The notes below the pieces were generated by a model. It made no database searches. It worked only from the letters and a program-made list of their open reading frames with translations, and was not told where the DNA came from. A stretch of 64,000 nucleotides of DNA, taken from assembly GCF_009914755.1 (NCBI RefSeq), contig NC_060930.1; one strand, written 5' to 3'. Positions 47,393-58,923 of the stretch are shown one piece after another. The number at the start of each line of letters is the position of its first letter. Position 1 is the first letter of the stretch. The translations under genes and the position numbers were made by a program. Source of the stretch: the human T2T-CHM13v2.0 reference genome, Homo sapiens.

Positions 47393-47479
47393 CTCCAGAA
47401 GAAAAGGAAGTCATTAAAGGACAGTATGGCAAGCTCACGGACGCGTACGGCTGCCTGGGGGAGCTGAGGCTGAAATCTG
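47393..47479 (+). CDS. SYNJ2: Synaptojanin 2 coding exon 2 (87 nt)
   Basis: Acceptor tttcttccccag| and donor G|gtgagt. In frame with exon 1: [29 protein letters not shown]. Too short to appear in the ORF track. Confidence 0.96.
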
Positions 47480-47901: not shown

Positions 47902-50170
47902 GACCTCTCTTCTCTTTTAAGATGTTTCTTTATGCCTCGGGACCTGCTCCTCCTGCAGGAACCTGCAGGTGGGGAGGTCAAGGTGAGTGTTGCCTGGTTG
48001 TCACCTGCCTGTGCTGGGGAGCAGGGTGGGGTTCCCGGCACCCCCACCCTGTGCCAGAGAAGCTCGTCTTCATTGCTTGCCGGCGAGAGCCTAAGTGTTT
48101 CGAAAGTCTGGTCTGGGGCTTCTGCCCAGGGCATTGTCCGCAGTACTCTAGAAGATGTGCCAAGGCGGGTGGGTGAAGACAGGAACCAGGGCAGATGCCG
48201 GGGGGCACAGGGGTGGGCTGGGAGTTGTCAGCAGGAGAAAAAAGCCACCGATGTGTGACTGTCAGTCAGTGTGGGGTGGGAGGGAGAGGAAGGGACAGTG
48301 TGATCTGACTTGCGAAGGGAGAGAACTTCCAGGAAGACGTGGGCATCTCTGCTCACTCTGAGAGACTCGGGGGTGAGCCGGTGGTGGCCGGCTGTCGCGG
48401 GTGGTCACAGCCAAACTCAGCTGTTCCTGGAGCTCAGGAGCCCTGGGGCTTTAGGTTCTACCACCTGTTTCCTTCCTTCTCTCTCAGGGGCCCCCTTGCC
48501 ATCTGTGACCTGGCTGTGGACATCTCTTGTGACTTCTGGGGCCGAGACAAGAGCCCAGTCGCATTCCTGATTCTCAGTCCCACCTGGCTGAGATGGGAAT
48601 GGCTGTATGGGTTGTCTGAATTCGGGCTTTCCCTGAGCCAAGCGCACACCTCCCTTCCCTGCTCACAGCAGCTGTTTTCAGAGACTGAGGATGTTTAAAG
48701 CTGCCAGAAAAGCACGGTTACGTTGGCCATTCCTTTTCTGGGTGTTTTCTGTCATGGAATGTTTTTCCCTGAACTGTGACGATTACAGTGATCATTTCCA
48801 AATAGCATTTAGGAAAAATACACAGTACCCACATGACAAAGTGCATTTATGAAATGTCTGTTTCGTGCCAAGAGCTAGCCGTACATTCACTTATTTAATC
48901 CTAAAAATAGGCTACTGTGATAATGCATCTTTGTCCCCGTTTACAGTAACGGGAACAGGCTCAGAAGCTTCAAGTAACTTGCCTTAGGTCAGAAACTTAG
49001 TTGGGGTTTGAAGCGCCTCCAAACGCTTGCTTTTTCTGTGAAAATGTGCGGGCTGCCGAGGGTTTTCTGCAGGACTTTCCGCTCTGCAGCGATCTTCCTG
49101 AAGTTGCAGGAAATCCCTGTGGCCCTTGCCTTCCATGGTGATGACCGTGAGGATGGTGGCCTGCACCTGCATGGGACTCACTTAGGAACTTGTTAACACG
49201 GCTCCCGAGGCCACCTGTGCTGTTGTCACCCTGCCTTGCAGGTGTGGCAGGGATGCCGCGTTCCATCCATGCTGATGCCCTTTTTTCCACATGGTGGTAT
49301 CTGGGCCCCCAAGATGCCTCACAGTCTTGGCTTCCTTCAGTTATAGTTGGCAGCTGCTTTTGGTCCTTACATGAATGACTCATTTTGCATCCGACAGGGA
49401 CTGGGATTCGACGAATTACAGTAACCGGCTCAAGGTCACGCCATTCTCAAGTGGTGCCCTGGGTTTTAAACTCATGCCTTGCGGCACCAGGGACTGCCTT
49501 CAACCACCAGGCTGTTCTCCTTTCTGAAAGGGACAGGTGGCTGGGCTCACAAGGGGGACAGGAAGTGCAGTACCTTCCCCCATCCCAGGGGAAAAGTGTT
49601 TTTTCCCAGGGCTGTGATCTAAGATCAGCTGTGGGAAATTGGTCCTAACCAGGAAGGGTGGCAGCCCCAAAGATGTCTTATTAGAGCGAGCCAGGGTGTC
49701 TGCGGGGGTCAGCAGGGTCTAATGGGGCAGGGAGTGCTCAGAGAGGAGACCACCTCCCAGGGCTGCCCTAGGCGAGGCCTCCTCCCTGCCTTCAGCCAGT
49801 CCCCGCCACCCCACACCCCACAGAAGGGAATGAGGCTTCTTGTGGACCATGCGAGACCAGCCCTGCTCCGAGGCTTTGGGTGCCCCCAACCCCTGCCCAC
49901 CTGTGAGAGTCACCCCCCGGAGTGGGTTGGAGTTTCTCTGAGTGTGGTGTGTATGAGTTTGACTTTGGCGATGTCAGGATAATTTGGTCTGTTTTCAACA
50001 CATTCTGGAAAGCACCCTGAGCATCTGAAGGATGGAAGGATTGGGCTTTAAATCAAGTTTTTTCAGTCCCCATTGGTTATCTTAAGGGGCGTTTGACTTT
50101 AACTTGATTTTCTTTTTCCCCTGTAAGTCCCTGACCCAGAACTGTGATCTATTTTCTTTTGTGTTTTCAG

Positions 50171-50895
50171 CTGTTGAGCATGTTGGGCAGCACGGAGTGT
50201 AGCTACAACTGTGTGACCCCACCTGTGTGACTGACTCCACCTGTGTGACTCCAGTCGTGTGACCAACTACAACTGTGTAACTGACTCCAATTGTGTGACT
50301 AACTCCACCTGTGTGACTCTGCGTGACTCCAACTGTGACTCCATCTGTATGACTCCAATTGTGTGACCCCCACCTGTGTGACTCTGACTGTGTGACCCCC
50401 ACCTGCGTGACTCTGACTGTGTGACCCCCACCTGCGTGACTCCGACTGTGTGACCCCCACCTGTGTGACTCCAACTGTGGACTGACTCTAACTATGTGAC
50501 TGACTCCAACTGTGTGACTAACTCCACCTGTATGACTCCAACTATATGATTGACTTCAACCGTGTGACCCCACCTGTGTGACCCCACCTGTGTGACTCCA
50601 ATTGTATGACTGACTCTAACTGTGTGACTCCAACTGTGACTCCATCTGTATGACTGACCTCAACTGTGTGACCCCACCTGTGTGACTCCAACTGTGTACT
50701 GACTCTGTGTGACTGACTCCACCTGTATGACTCCAACTATATGACTGACTTCAACCGTGTGACCCCACCTGTGTGACTCCAGTTGTGTGACTGATTTCAC
50801 TGCGTGGCTAACTCCACTGTTGCCTGACTCCAGCTGCGTGACTTCAGCTGTGTGACTCCATGTATGTGACCCTAGCTGTGTGACTCCAACTTTCA
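50171..50895 (+). other. Candidate cryptic (TDP-43-type) terminal exon in SYNJ2 intron 2; 3' end uncertain
   Basis: Branch-like cctgac (50130), polypyrimidine tract attttcttttgtgttttcag|, in-frame TAG at 50200-50202, then a UG-rich repeat. Confidence 0.65.
50203..50892. repeat. Degenerate minisatellite of (ccacc/ccaac)tgtgtgact-type units
   Basis: Dozens of variant units such as ccacctgtgtgactccaactgtgtgacc, including near-perfect ~29-bp copies at 50360-50470. Confidence 0.95.
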
Positions 50896-53139
50896 GTTGC
50901 CACGAAGACAACCAGCTGAGTCAGGAGTGGGCCTCCCTTTCAATGTTTTTAGCTAAGCATCTCTGCGCAAAGAAAGAGGCTTCCCCACAGGCTCTTAATT
51001 TGGGACAAGTTTTCCCTTAGTTTGGGAAAAATTTCAATCTACCTAAATTAGCCTTTTACATTAGAAATCGAGAAATATGCACAAAAATTCATAAAAGCCT
51101 TTTTCCAGGTTCCAAGGTTTTTGTAGAAAGCCCAAAGTTCCCCTTTCCTTCCTGAAATGCCAGCAGGAAGGGGTTGGAGCTCCCGTGATTAGCCAGGGAG
51201 TCAGGCTTCCTGAAGTTTACACAATACAAAGCATATTAAGTGAGAATGTAGCAGAAAAAAGAACTTATCCCAATGATTATAGCAATTTAAATTCTCTTGA
51301 ACCCAAGCTCTCAAGGCCTACCTGTTTTATAGCCTCAAGGGACTCTACTCCTATCCCAGACTATAATGAATTGTGTCTCCTGGAGTTGTGCAGTACGCAA
51401 CCTGTGAAGCTGTACACGACAGCCCTATAAATTCTCTAGCAGACAGCCCTCCTAGATTCTAGTTCCCACTTCACAGCTGAACTGCATTTAATCTCTGTAG
51501 GACTGTTTTCCTGTCTGTAAACCTGGGAAAACTGCCTCATCTCTATGTTGCCTAGTTCTCAGGAGGTCCACATGGGCCATGCACATGGTAGCCATGAAGA
51601 GTGTGGAGTGCTCCTCCAACACCAGGCGGGCTGGCCACAGGCAGTTTCTTAGAGTGTGGCCTGGGGACGCTGCCACCACTGAGAAGCTCTGCTGTCTCTC
51701 CTCTGTCCCTGGGAGGGCTGGAGGGAGGAGGGTGCTGAGTGAGAGGGACCTGGCCTGCAGAGGGCTGAGGACGAGGTGTGAGCTGGAAGGCCAGGCTGTG
51801 TGGCCTCGGGGTGTGGACTCCTGGTGGGGGGCTCCTCTGCACAGGCTAGCAGAGGGCTGGTTTCATGGGCAGTCACTTCAGAAGGAGGATTCCCTGGAGG
51901 GGAGTTTGAACCCTTAGTCTTTTGGGATGCAGTGTTCTCTAGCAAGTCTTGAAGCGAACTGGCCTTTGTCGGTCTTAGATTAATTTAATTCCTGTGCCCA
52001 GTGGTGGGATATTACCAAGAGAGTTGACACCCAGCTCCCTGAGGGGGAAGCTCTGAGATGATGCAGCATTTGCCAGTTTCCAAGGTGTAAATTCACGGGC
52101 CAGGGCTGATTTCAGGTTCCCAGCGTGGAGCTGAGGAAGGATCTGCACCAGGGGTGCTCACTGCGGGTGTTCACTGCTGCGGCCGCCGCTGCCTACACCT
52201 CCCTCACGTTCTGCAGAAGGGAGGCGGGAGAAGGCCCTGAGACCATGCCGCATGGGCACACAGTGCTTAGGGTTCTGAACCTGCGGGTGGCGGGGGAGGC
52301 TCAAGGGTCATCTGGCCGAAGCTTCCCCCTTCACAGGTGGGAAAGCCTAGACATCTTTAGTCCTTTGTTTGGAGCTTTAAGTCTGAGGGTGTCTGTGTGA
52401 GCAGAGGGACAGATAGGATGGCTGGAGGGACCCCAGGGTTGGGATTGGCACAGACCAGGCTGGGAAGGTGAACTCAGAGCTGAGACAACACAAGGAAATG
52501 CCAGCCCAGAGCCTTGTGGGAGGCCTGGGGTGGTCCCGGTAAACGGGGCCTTGGGTCTGCAAGCCACGTATCATGACTCCAACAGCCAGCTTTCCTGGCC
52601 TGATAACAAATTGCCTAGGACCTGCCACTGGCTCTCGCCTCCCTCCACCTCACTCTAGCAGCTCCCTCTGACCCATGCATGGCTTTGCTTTGGCCAGAGC
52701 CCTGGAACCAAAGCCCTTTACCTGGAGGGGACATTGAGACTATTGGCGCATCCTCCTGGGAGGCCCAGAGAGGGTAAGAGCCTTGCCTGAGGCCACACAG
52801 GCCACTGGAGGTGTGCAGAGCCTGGAGCCCCACTCTTCTGAGTTTTGTTTTTCCACTTGCTATGAGATCCTTGATGGTTTCAGGGCCCTGGTCTCTCCCT
52901 CAGCTGAGGACTGCCAAGAACCCCGCAAGCCTAGTTAGCTTCTTGGCTGTCAGAGAATTGATCCTGCCTCACAAAAGCAAATCCTGTGCTCTAGGTGAGC
53001 ATCGGGAGGGGCCTCACACACCTGGGGCAGGTGGGGACCAGTGGCTTGTACCACACTGACGGTGGCCCGGGAGTCAGCGACCCCCCACAGCCTGGTGCTA
53101 GGCTCAAGCCAGGACACTTTCCTTAAAACCCATAGTACA

Positions 53140-53999: not shown

Positions 54000-54745
<746 letters not shown>

Positions 54746-55526: not shown

Positions 55527-55565
55527 GGTACACTGGTTGACCACACTCTTTTAAAGGGTACAGCA

Positions 55566-56184
<619 letters not shown>

Positions 56185-58923
56185 AGGGTACAGCAAACTA
56201 ATCCGATTGGAAACTGCCGGACTTTGGGGCTAGATGGAGCATGGGCTTAAAGTGAAACCTACATTTTGGCTCCAACACAGACTAGCTGTGTGCTTGGGCG
56301 GGTGATTCAGCTTCCCTGGGGGACAGTCATGCGTGTGTGAAATGGCAGTGGTAGCCCTGAGACAGCAGCATGGGTAAGCAGGCTGGCGACGTCATCTGCA
56401 AGGAGGTGTAATTAGGAGCACCAGCTCTGGGGCCAGACTTGGCTTGAGAAACTTGCCCAGGCACTGTAGCTAGAAAGTGGATTTGGATCCGAGCTCCCCG
56501 CTCTGTCACCTTGGGCAGGCTGCTTAACCTCTCTGTGCGTCTGTTTCCCTCCCTGTGAGATGGGGCTGGTAAGGGCGCCCCTTGCGGTGGGCGGGAGGAT
56601 GGAGTCCGCGCCTGTACAGCTCCCCTGCCTCCACTGCGCTCACCAGATACCGGCTCTCCTCACTCCCCTGTACCACTCCCGACCCCCTCCTCCCTGGACC
56701 CAGGAGCCCCAGTGCTCTGTGGCAATGTTAAGAGCCTCTCCTGGCTGCTACAGTGCTCCTCTCCCCAGCCTCCCCCAGGCCGTGGTCCTGCCCAGGAAAT
56801 GCACCTGGGACTGTTGCCAGGCACTCAGGCCCCCCACACGGAGGCTGTTGAGGAAGTGGTGCTAGAAATCAGCTCATGACTCTCACGGAGTGATGTCATG
56901 CAAAATTTTCCATAGCTCTGGCAGCCACAGGGGCCATCCTCCTGCCTCTCCGAGGGCACTTCTGCTGAACTGTGCTTTTCCCTGCACTGTGTCAGAAGAG
57001 GCAGGTGGGTGCCGGGAGCGCTCTGTGGCCAAGGCTCTGATCACAAGCTGCCAACCCCGGAACCCCACCTATCCTACTTGAGAAGCTGAACTCTGACCCC
57101 TGTCCCTGTCCCCAGTGTGATAACTTCCTTTGTTCTTAGGTGGTTTTGAGGTGGTTTCCTGAGGATGTGTCTGGGGAGATGTGATGGGATCAACCCCCTG
57201 CCCTGCTGGCAGCCCCACCCCATGGCATAGCAGCAGGCCCCTGGGAGCCCTGAGCGCTCATTAAAGGAACGCACTTTAATGACAGCCACACGCCACCCTG
57301 CCACAAGCAGCGCTCTTCTCCCTATGAAGTGTGGTGAGGAAATTGGGGTGAGAGGGTGGTGGAATTGGTTGTTTTGGGGGTCTCTTCCTGGAGTGTGGAG
57401 AGATCAGAACCATCTCCAGACCATGGCTGTAGACAGCGGCCCTTGATCATTCACAGAAGATCTCGCTGGGCGGATCCTTCAGACCTCAGCGGGGTGGGAA
57501 GAGTGTCCTTGGGACTAGAGCCCTGCCAGACCCCAAAGGCCGGTTTCTACCCGATGATCTCTTGGGCCCCGTCCCGAGAGTGAGGCACGGCGCCACCAGG
57601 CACCCCCGATACGCAGCGTGTTGTGAAGTGCCCTTGTGAGCAGCGGGGGATAGGGAACAGAAAACCAGCTGTCAGCGACAGCGAGGTGGTGCCCGAGAGA
57701 GGGCTGCCTCATTCGCCTGGCTGCAGGGTCCGAGGTCGTCTTGGTAGCATTTGGCAGGAATTTATTTAGGAAGCATTCAGCAAACCGAGTGTGTGTGGTG
57801 CTGGGAGATGACGACGAAATGGCCCTGCCCCCAAGGAAGCCCCTCCCCTGGGGGCACAGGTGGGGAGGGAGGTCATGAGCTTTGTGTGTGTGACAACTGC
57901 TGATGGGAATGCTATTGGCACGTACGAGGGGTGCCTGTCCGTGTCTTGGGAGAGCAAGGAAGGCTTCCCGGAGGAGTTGCTGCCAAGTTGGCCCAGAAGG
58001 ATGAGGAGGAGTTCTTCTGGTGAAGTGGGGAGGGCAGAGGCAGGATGGTCCCTACGGAGCATGTGGGGACGCTCGTGTTCTTCCAGAGGATGGAATGCTG
58101 GGCCCGAAGCCTGAAGTATTGTTAGGGTAGAGACAGGCGGGAGGTGCGTGGAGAAGGGGTCATGGAGGTCTTGTTGGGCAGATGGCGGTGGGACGTCCCA
58201 GGCAGGGGGAGCATCTTGGGCAAGAGCCCAGGGTGCGAGGTCATGCTTATGGCACATTGGACCAGCTGGAGGACAGCCAGCTCAGGAGAGCAGCCGGCTG
58301 GGGTGTCTGCCCACGTGTGGGGCAGGGATGGGCTGCAGCGGGGAGGGATTTGGGAGCTTCTGTCGTAGTCCTGCAGGGAGTGGGAGCTGTGCAAGAAGGA
58401 AGGGCGGAGCGGCTGTGATCCAATGACTTTGGGAAGGCCACTCCTGTGATGGAGTGGGGGAAGACAGACCCCAGGCCAGGGGTCCTGAGTCAAGGCAGTG
58501 GCTGAGGAGGCACTGGGGAAGGTGATTTGGAGAGGCTTTGGGGGTAGGTCCTGGGGGTCTGGAAGGGCTCTAGGCCAGGAATTTTCAGACTCCTGGGGGC
58601 ATCAGAATCACCTGGAGGGCTTGTTAAAGCAAAGCTTGCCCCCAGCCTCAGGCAGCTGGGCGGCAGGAATCTGCATGTCTAACAGGCTCCCAGGGGATGC
58701 TGACTTGCTGGCCAGGGTCCCACACTTTGAGAAGCCCCGCCTGAAGCTTACAGGACAGGGCAGGTTCTTGAGCCATTGAGTTGGGCAATGCCATGGGAAG
58801 TTGCAGGTGCACAGACGTTGCCTTCCTGGCTGCGGTTGAACCTGGGCTCCATTTGTCCCCTTGGAGCTCCAGGCGGCCGGGCCGACTTCGACCCTGAGCT
58901 CTCCTGTCTGATTTCCTTTCCAG

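What the first reader, a model, noticed from the sequence alone, without database searches (positions are those of the whole stretch)
50120..51440. Cryptic last/poison exon in intron 2 with an adjacent UG-rich array (TDP-43-repressed architecture)
Seen in sequence: 2.69 kb after the exon 2 donor is a near-ideal 3' splice site (branch-like cctgac at 50130; attttcttttgtgttttcag|, AG at 50169-50170). Spliced to exon 2 (phase 1) it reads A-V-E-H-V-G-Q-H-G-V-stop (TAG at 50200-50202). This would give an 81-aa product lacking both phosphatase domains, with novel tryptic peptide SAVEHVGQHGV. Right after the stop begins ~700 bp carrying dozens of UGUGUG motifs. Variant poly(A) signals follow (CATAAA 51090 with U-rich sequence downstream, AATACA 51223, TATAAA 51426). 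Established: TDP-43 binds UG repeats and represses adjacent cryptic exons. From memory, SYNJ2 has been reported among TDP-43-loss cryptic/alternative last exon targets in ALS/FTD work; I cannot verify here that this is the same junction. Inference: the minisatellite acts as the silencer, so its length or sequence polymorphism could tune susceptibility.
Basis: partly seen in the sequence, partly recalled or inferred. Interest (0 to 1): 0.85.

Follow-up and report, generated by a model that had tools for sequence, protein, structure and literature searches.

The report
SYNJ2 intron-2 cryptic last exon candidate
An unannotated splice acceptor in SYNJ2 intron 2 is followed at once by a stop codon and a 690-base UG-motif minisatellite, which fits a TDP-43-silenced cryptic last exon of a kind already published for this gene, though I could not confirm it is the same junction.

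Summary
The acceptor AG is at 50169-50170. Spliced to exon 2 (phase 1), the frame reads ten codons to TAG at 50200-50202, giving 81 aa. A tandem array at 50203-50890 carries 22 UGUGUG and 25 GUGUGA on the sense strand only.

This array is the densest 700-nt stretch of TDP-43-preferred hexamers in the whole SYNJ2 gene.

"Near-ideal" overstates the acceptor. By my position-weight matrix it sits at the 58th percentile of real acceptors and ranks 118 of 8,633 AGs in the gene.

The poly(A) end is the weak part. There are only variant hexamers, and no AATAAA or ATTAAA until 54239.

A TDP-43-dependent cryptic alternative last exon in SYNJ2 is already published. It was validated by 3'RACE and is the third most often detected specific cryptic event in a large ALS cohort (PMC12586162).

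Two other UG-rich sites further down the gene are rival locations.

Verdict: probably the known SYNJ2 cryptic last exon, built like STMN2 exon 2a. Only the idea that the minisatellite is the silencer and a possible length modifier may be new, and it is untested.

The parts
47393..47479 (+). SYNJ2 coding exon 2. Its donor (CTG|GTGAGT, phase 1) would be the upstream partner of the cryptic acceptor.
   Evidence: RefSeq rows and sequence. The donor scores 10.2 bits, at the 80th percentile of 262 training donors.
50131..50135 (+). Branch-point-like CTGAC (yUnAy). The A at 50134 lies 36 nt before the G of the AG.
   Evidence: Sequence. The only AG between it and 50169 lies 4-5 nt after the A, which by established splicing rules is too close to be used. 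No branch mapping was done.
50148..50170 (+). Polypyrimidine tract and candidate 3' splice site (tctattttcttttgtgttttcag|).
   Evidence: The matrix score is 9.97 bits, above 58% of 272 real chr6 acceptors and above 17 of 29 annotated SYNJ2 acceptors. It ranks 118 of 8,633 AGs in the gene. No RefSeq transcript uses it.
50171..50202 (+). Coding start of the candidate last exon: ten new codons (the first is split with exon 2), then TAG.
   Evidence: In-silico splice and translation give 81 aa.
50203..50890 (+). Minisatellite of 34 YGYRTGAC cores, mostly CUGUGUGAC in the RNA. It is the proposed TDP-43 binding platform and lies in the 3' UTR of the candidate exon.
   Evidence: Tandem Repeats Finder arrays. 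It holds 30 YG, 9 YA and 25 AA-group TDP-43 hexamers covering 37% of bases, with 0 on the antisense strand. It gives the highest 700-nt hexamer coverage in the whole gene (0.363 against a mean of 0.028). 23 of 33 core spacings are 14-18 nt. It is a single copy in the genome. Internal copies reach 94% and 86-90% identity.
51090..51126 (+). Best of the weak poly(A) candidates: CATAAA followed by U-rich and GU-rich sequence. It would give a last exon of about 0.94 kb.
   Evidence: The downstream T fraction is 0.35, against 0.60 at the annotated SYNJ2 3' end. Usage is inferred only.
51223..51431 (+). Further variant hexamers: AATACA at 51223, AATGAA at 51365, TATAAA at 51426.
   Evidence: Their downstream contexts are poorer. 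The first canonical AATAAA is at 54239.

Best explanation
Window 50171 to about 51110 (or further) is a cryptic alternative last exon of SYNJ2 in intron 2, built like STMN2 exon 2a.

In healthy nuclei, TDP-43 coats the roughly 690-nt minisatellite that begins 33 nt after the acceptor. The array has 34 short UGUGUGA-type cores every 14-18 nt, so it is a long multivalent site rather than one long UG run. That coating blocks use of the 3' splice site, and exon 2 splices to exon 3, 11.4 kb away.

When nuclear TDP-43 is lost, the acceptor is the first competent one to be uncovered after a strong exon 2 donor. Exon 2 joins it, the frame stops after ten codons, and the transcript ends at a weak intronic poly(A) site. 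The short mRNA escapes nonsense-mediated decay because the stop lies in the last exon. It encodes at most an 81-aa stub without the Sac1 and 5-phosphatase domains, so full-length SYNJ2 falls.

This is most likely the SYNJ2 cryptic ALE already published.

Shown here: the sequence anatomy and its rank within the gene.
Shown in print: SYNJ2 has a TDP-43-dependent ALE.
Inferred: that the two are the same, that TDP-43 binds the array, the steric mechanism, and the poly(A) site.
For: - Acceptor, frame and stop are confirmed.
- The acceptor is above the median of real acceptors. The exon 2 donor is at the 80th percentile.
- The array is the top 700-nt window in the 118-kb gene for the 20 TDP-43-preferred hexamers listed in PMC12586162, and only on the sense strand.
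- Among the 117 AGs in the gene at or above this acceptor's score, it has the most TDP-43 hexamers within -100..+300: 29, against 15 for the next.
- No donor of 6 bits or more lies within 1,068 nt. That favours a terminal exon over a cassette.
- Published work supports a SYNJ2 cryptic ALE. It rises on TDP-43 knockdown in i3Neurons (3'RACE-qPCR) and in FTD-TDP cortex, and is the third most frequently detected specific cryptic event in the NYGC cohort.
- In that paper TDP-43 iCLIP signal and YG hexamers are enriched around cryptic ALE acceptors.
- The STMN2 precedent matches. A GU-rich motif inside exon 2a acts as a steric block on the acceptor, and the acceptor rather than the poly(A) signal is required (a commentary on Baughn et al. 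2023).
Against: - No text I could read places the published ALE in intron 2.
- Literature searches for the new peptide tail and for coordinate strings I half-remembered found nothing relevant.
- Two other sites in the gene have comparable or denser UG tracts with canonical poly(A) hexamers. One is at gene position 70352-70725, the other at 85403-85726.
- Here there are only variant poly(A) hexamers with mediocre downstream context.
- Each UG run is only 6 nt long. By recalled knowledge, single-site affinity rises with UG repeat length.
- Good acceptors are common in the gene, about 1 per kb.
- No RefSeq model uses this exon, and no named-source human protein carries it. That search was narrow, and it left out 30 sample-only candidates.
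Confidence: 0.55

Rival explanations
1. Coincidence. The acceptor-like site and the minisatellite are inert intronic sequence, and the published SYNJ2 cryptic ALE lies elsewhere in the gene. The likeliest alternatives are the degenerate UG tract at gene position 70352-70600 (L001:6352-6600, ATTAAA at L001:6725) and the site just after the exon at 85155-85216 (acceptor L002:1403, AATAAA at L002:1566 and 1598, (TG)17 at L002:1693-1726).
For: - In 500-nt windows of YG hexamers, those two sites score 32 and 30, against 22 here.
- Both have canonical poly(A) hexamers, which this site lacks.
- A pure (TG)17 lying 95-130 nt after an AATAAA fits the reported peak of YG hexamers downstream of cryptic ALE poly(A) sites.
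- Among acceptors of 6.9 bits or more, 70352 has 63 hexamers in -100..+300, against 29 here.
- The chance of a good AG next to the array is about 0.1.
Against: - The 70352 acceptor is weak, at 6.9 bits (about the 24th percentile of real acceptors). It lies inside a 5-kb first exon of Gnomon model XM_054356675.1, so the region may be expressed without TDP-43 loss.
- Its ATTAAA is followed by A12, a classic source of priming artefacts.
- The 85.4-kb site has few hexamers around the acceptor itself: 12.
- Over 700 nt and all 20 hexamers, the intron-2 array is clearly first: 0.363 against 0.239 and 0.101.
Confidence: 0.3
2. The minisatellite does bind TDP-43, but it serves something other than silencing this acceptor. 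For example, it could aid processing of the 11.4-kb intron or suppress intronic polyadenylation generally. In that case the 50171 acceptor is never used.
For: - TDP-43 hexamer density is very high.
- Eleven other AGs in intron 2 score at least as well and are equally unannotated.
Against: - The closest strong splice signal to the array is this acceptor, 33 nt upstream.
- Published metaprofiles tie TDP-43 binding near acceptors to cryptic ALEs.
- No canonical poly(A) signal lies nearby that would need repressing.
Confidence: 0.1
3. It is a poison cassette exon rather than a last exon. It would be spliced out again at a weak donor, for example CAT|GTATGT at 50861, and the transcript would then be destroyed by nonsense-mediated decay.
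For: - A 5.9-bit donor sits at the end of the array, and a 6.1-bit one at 51239.
- About a quarter of real donors score below 6.1.
- Poly(A) signals here are weak.
Against: - The cassette would be 691 or 1,069 nt long. By established knowledge that is far longer than typical internal exons.
- Both donors are in the lowest quartile.
- The published SYNJ2 event was classed as an ALE and confirmed by 3'RACE.
Confidence: 0.05

Closest known systems
STMN2 exon 2a (TDP-43-repressed cryptic splice-polyadenylation)
   Same: - It is a cryptic last exon in an early intron.
- It brings an in-frame stop and a premature 3' end.
- The GU motif lies inside the exon, downstream of the acceptor.
- The product is a short stub and full-length mRNA is lost.
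   Different: - STMN2 has one 24-nt GU-rich motif. Here there are 34 short cores spread over about 690 nt as a minisatellite.
- The poly(A) signals here are non-canonical.
- TDP-43 binding and steric block are shown for STMN2 and only inferred here.
The published SYNJ2 cryptic alternative last exon (Bryce-Smith et al., Nat Neurosci 2025, PMC12586162)
   Same: It is in the same gene, it is the same class of event (a spliced ALE), and it depends on TDP-43.
   Different: Identity of the junction is unproven, because the coordinates are only in closed supplements. The text I read does not mention a tandem repeat at the SYNJ2 event. A search for SYNJ2 with VNTR found 0 papers.
UG-repeat-flanked TDP-43 cryptic cassette exons (Ling et al. 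2015 type; recalled, cited within)
   Same: Both are non-annotated intronic exons next to UG-rich sequence that are de-repressed on TDP-43 loss.
   Different: Those are internal cassettes that usually trigger NMD, often next to long pure UG microsatellites. This one is terminal, has only (UG)3 runs, and would escape NMD.

Membership tests
TDP-43-repressed cryptic alternative last exon | An unannotated intronic exon with a competent 3' splice site | tested here: met
   No RefSeq transcript has an exon here. The acceptor scores 9.97 bits, at the 58th percentile of 272 real acceptors. Competence is judged in silico only.
TDP-43-repressed cryptic alternative last exon | A UG-rich TDP-43 motif cluster on the sense strand at or near the exon | tested here: met
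   There are 64 hits of the 20 preferred hexamers in 688 nt, with 0 on the antisense strand. This is the top 700-nt window of the gene.
TDP-43-repressed cryptic alternative last exon | Its own cleavage and polyadenylation site | tested here: inconclusive
   Only variant hexamers are present (CATAAA, AATACA, AATGAA, TATAAA). No AATAAA or ATTAAA occurs before 54239. Downstream U-richness is modest.
TDP-43-repressed cryptic alternative last exon | No downstream 5' splice site in use (a terminal exon) | tested here: inconclusive
   No donor of 6 bits or more lies within 1,068 nt. The best inside that span is 5.9 bits at 50861. A weak donor cannot be excluded.
TDP-43-repressed cryptic alternative last exon | Usage near zero in controls and rising on TDP-43 loss | not testable with these tools
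   This is published for a SYNJ2 ALE, but not tied to this junction. Reads are off and supplements are closed.
TDP-43-repressed cryptic alternative last exon | Direct TDP-43 binding (CLIP) | not testable with these tools
   No CLIP data are available here.
Minisatellite / VNTR | A head-to-tail array of 10-100-nt units | tested here: met
   Tandem Repeats Finder gives periods of 14 to 195 across 50206-50888. Higher-order copies reach 94% identity.
Minisatellite / VNTR | Copy number varies between people | not testable with these tools
   Only one assembly was at hand. Near-identical internal copies make variation plausible. A search for SYNJ2 with VNTR found 0 papers.
Poison (NMD) cassette exon | An internal exon with both splice sites and a premature stop upstream of a later junction | tested here: inconclusive
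   The stop is present. The only donors are in the lowest quartile, and they would give exons of 691 nt or more.

The most novel reading that the evidence does not exclude
The silencer of the SYNJ2 cryptic last exon is not a classical long UG tract. It is a roughly 690-nt minisatellite of 34 short UGUGUGA cores, a low-affinity and high-valency TDP-43 platform. Its copy number differs between people. It therefore sets, allele by allele, how far nuclear TDP-43 must fall before SYNJ2 is truncated. That would make the SYNJ2 ALE an unusually early and genotype-dependent readout of TDP-43 loss.
Probability: 0.15. Interest if true: 0.6.

Novelty: already known. Interest (0 to 1): 0.3.

Why it matters
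SYNJ2's cryptic last exon is among the most often detected TDP-43-loss events in ALS/FTD tissue, so it is a candidate biomarker.

If this is the site, three things follow:
- The product is a defined 81-aa stub with a unique C-terminal peptide that can be sought by mass spectrometry.
- The transcript should be stable, because it would escape nonsense-mediated decay.
- The repressor platform is a minisatellite. That offers a testable genetic source of person-to-person variation in the marker, and a defined target for steric-block oligonucleotides.

If it is not the site, the region is an ordinary intronic repeat next to a decoy acceptor.

Tried and rejected
Literature for the junction's place. 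I read passages of PMC12586162 and its section 8 in full, and passages of its preprint. There are no coordinates, primers or intron numbers in the text.
- The review PMC13343711 lists SYNJ2 only in tables (passages).
- PMC12667841, PMC12011103 and PMC12023386 have 0 mentions of SYNJ2 in the main text.
- PubMed id 41389796 is not held.
- Many first hits were the mouse gene Synj2bp, not SYNJ2. PMC12286074 reports only lower SYNJ2 expression in ALS cord.
- The search for the new peptide tail found 0 papers.
- Coordinate strings that I half-remembered for the published junction gave 1 unrelated paper and 0 papers. That recollection therefore counts for nothing, and I give no numbers from it.
- SYNJ2 with VNTR found 0 papers. 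SYNJ2 with polyadenylation terms found only the same paper and its preprint.

Protein evidence. A word search for short SYNJ2 N-terminal proteins in named sources returned 2 of 2 scored candidates, from beaver and a tortoise, and none from human. The tool left out 30 sample-only candidates. Pfam found nothing in the 91-aa beaver protein.

Other identities.
- Rfam found 0 families in 49500-52000.
- The array has no second copy in the genome. That search skips simple repeats, so it is a weak negative.
- The array is not in the RefSeq masked-repeat rows.

Rejected. The label 'near-ideal acceptor'. A cassette exon as the main reading.

Limits. My splice scores come from a simple position-weight matrix trained on 272 acceptors and 262 donors from 20 gene-dense 10-kb stretches of chr6. 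They are not MaxEntScan or SpliceAI scores. One GC donor was dropped from training. The list of variant poly(A) hexamers in my scripts is recalled.


Full report
WHAT IS THERE

Exon 2 of SYNJ2 ends at 47479 with CTG|GTGAGT. The coding length up to there is 214 nt, so the exon ends in phase 1.

2,691 nt into intron 2 there is a CTGAC at 50131-50135. It is followed by a 23-nt pyrimidine-rich tract ending in CAG, with the AG at 50169-50170. Joining exon 2 to 50171 in silico gives ten new codons and TAG at 50200-50202, for a product of 81 aa.

From 50203 to 50890, Tandem Repeats Finder reports overlapping arrays with periods of 14, 18, 32, 46, 58, 104 and 195. I count 34 cores of the form YGYRTGAC, and 23 of the 33 spacings between them are 14-18 nt. 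Internal blocks are very alike: one 88-nt pair is 94% identical, and a run of 29-nt-spaced copies is 78-90% identical. This is the pattern of a minisatellite that has recently gained copies.

The array occurs once in the genome (a weak negative). It matches no Rfam family and is not among the masked-repeat rows. No RefSeq transcript has an exon here.

HOW UNUSUAL IS IT

I trained simple position-weight matrices on 272 acceptors and 262 donors of MANE-select transcripts from twenty 10-kb stretches of chr6.
- The 50171 acceptor scores 9.97 bits. That is above 58% of real acceptors and above 17 of 29 annotated SYNJ2 acceptors, but it ranks only 118 of 8,633 AGs in the gene.
- Eleven other AGs in intron 2 score at least as high.
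- So the acceptor is good, not exceptional, and a good AG within 100 nt of any given point has about a one-in-ten chance.

What is exceptional is the array.
- I used the 20 TDP-43-preferred hexamers printed in Bryce-Smith et al.. On that measure it is the highest 700-nt window in the whole 118-kb gene. Coverage is 0.363, against a mean of 0.028 and a 99th percentile of 0.195.
- All hits are on the sense strand.
- Among the 117 AGs at or above this acceptor's score, it has the most such hexamers within -100..+300: 29, with 15 for the next.
- Each UG run is only six bases long. The site is many weak motifs, not one strong one.

THE 3' END

No donor of 6 bits or more lies within 1,068 nt of the acceptor. 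The best inside that span is 5.9 bits at 50861. That favours a terminal exon.

The poly(A) end is the weakest part. The only hexamers are CATAAA at 51090, AATACA at 51223, AATGAA at 51365 and TATAAA at 51426. The first AATAAA is at 54239. CATAAA has the best downstream context, with a T fraction of 0.35. The annotated SYNJ2 end has 0.60.

WHAT IS IN PRINT

Bryce-Smith et al. (Nat Neurosci 2025, PMC12586162; passages and section 8 read) report a cryptic alternative last exon in SYNJ2 with these properties:
- It is raised on TDP-43 knockdown in i3Neurons, by 3'RACE-qPCR.
- It is raised in FTD-TDP frontal cortex.
- It is third among the most frequently detected disease-specific cryptic events in the NYGC cohort.

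They also find TDP-43 iCLIP signal and YG hexamers enriched around cryptic ALE acceptors and downstream of their poly(A) sites.

A 2026 review lists SYNJ2 among cryptic targets in cortex and cord.

None of the text available to me says where in SYNJ2 the exon lies, and the supplements are closed. Searches for the new peptide tail, for coordinate strings I half-remembered, and for SYNJ2 with VNTR gave nothing usable. Many apparent hits concern mouse Synj2bp, a different gene.

RIVAL PLACES IN THE GENE

I fetched the rest of SYNJ2 and scanned it. Two other sense-strand UG clusters stand out.
- Gene position 70352-70600 is a degenerate UG tract directly after a 6.9-bit acceptor. An ATTAAA plus A12 lies 375 nt on. 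It sits inside the 5-kb first exon of a Gnomon model.
- At 85403 there is an 8.5-bit acceptor, 186 nt after an annotated exon. Two AATAAA follow, and then a pure (TG)17.

Either could be the published event. On acceptor strength, and on total motif load over 700 nt, the intron-2 site is the best of the three. On canonical poly(A) signals it is the worst.

MECHANISM

The closest model is STMN2 exon 2a. That is a cryptic last exon in the first intron, with an in-frame stop and a premature poly(A) signal. It is held off by TDP-43 bound to a GU-rich motif inside the exon, acting as a steric block on the acceptor. The acceptor, not the poly(A) signal, is required (a commentary on Baughn et al. 2023).

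I propose the same mechanism here, with the minisatellite as a long multivalent platform starting 33 nt after the acceptor. After TDP-43 loss, the strong exon 2 donor (10.2 bits, 80th percentile) would meet this acceptor 8.7 kb before the normal one. The transcript would stop early, escape NMD, and encode at most a stub lacking both phosphatase domains. The domain layout is from established knowledge of synaptojanins and was not tested here.

Binding, steric block and the poly(A) site are all inferred.

VERDICT

- I put 0.55 on this being a real TDP-43-repressed cryptic last exon and the one already published.
- I put 0.3 on coincidence, with the published exon lying elsewhere in the gene.
- The rest goes to other roles for the array, or to a cassette exon.
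- As a discovery it is already known at gene level.
- The possibly new piece is the minisatellite as silencer and as a length-variable modifier. It is plausible and untested, at about 0.15 for the full chain.

Noticed in passing
L001:6352-6725 (chr6:159,286,352-159,286,725; gene position 70352-70725): A 250-nt degenerate UG tract follows directly after a 6.9-bit acceptor. It holds 31 YG and 32 YA TDP-43 hexamers, covering 62% of bases. ATTAAA plus A12 follows. It could host its own TDP-43-repressed event, and the A-run could give priming artefacts in 3'-end data.
   Followed up: partly
L002:1403-1726 (chr6:159,301,403-159,301,726; gene position 85403-85726): An 8.5-bit acceptor lies 186 nt after the annotated exon 85155-85216. 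Two AATAAA follow, and then a pure (TG)17 microsatellite. This is another candidate for TDP-43-controlled premature termination.
   Followed up: partly
L001:9720-9790 (gene position 73720-73790): A 10.3-bit acceptor lies 127 nt after the exon 73510-73593, followed by a short UG/UGCG cluster with 11 YG hexamers. No canonical poly(A) hexamer occurs within 1.9 kb.
   Followed up: partly
L001:1825-6901: Gnomon model XM_054356675.1 starts with a 5,077-nt first exon that spans the 70.4-kb UG tract. That suggests an internal promoter or unspliced coverage there.
   Followed up: no
window 48488 and 56779: Two unannotated AGs in intron 2 score 14.1 and 14.9 bits, higher than almost every real SYNJ2 acceptor. 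They have 2 and 0 TDP-43 hexamers nearby. They are strong decoys with no evident repressor motif.
   Followed up: no
proteins P0001 and P0002: UniRef holds predicted short SYNJ2 N-terminal proteins from beaver (91 aa) and a giant tortoise (80 aa). Both end soon after exon 2, with tails unlike the human one. Early truncated isoforms after exon 2 may recur in other species through different sequences.
   Followed up: partly
window 56129-56142: Three overlapping AATAAA lie inside a masked repeat (55560-56189), about 1 kb before the alternative exon 57140-57333.
   Followed up: no
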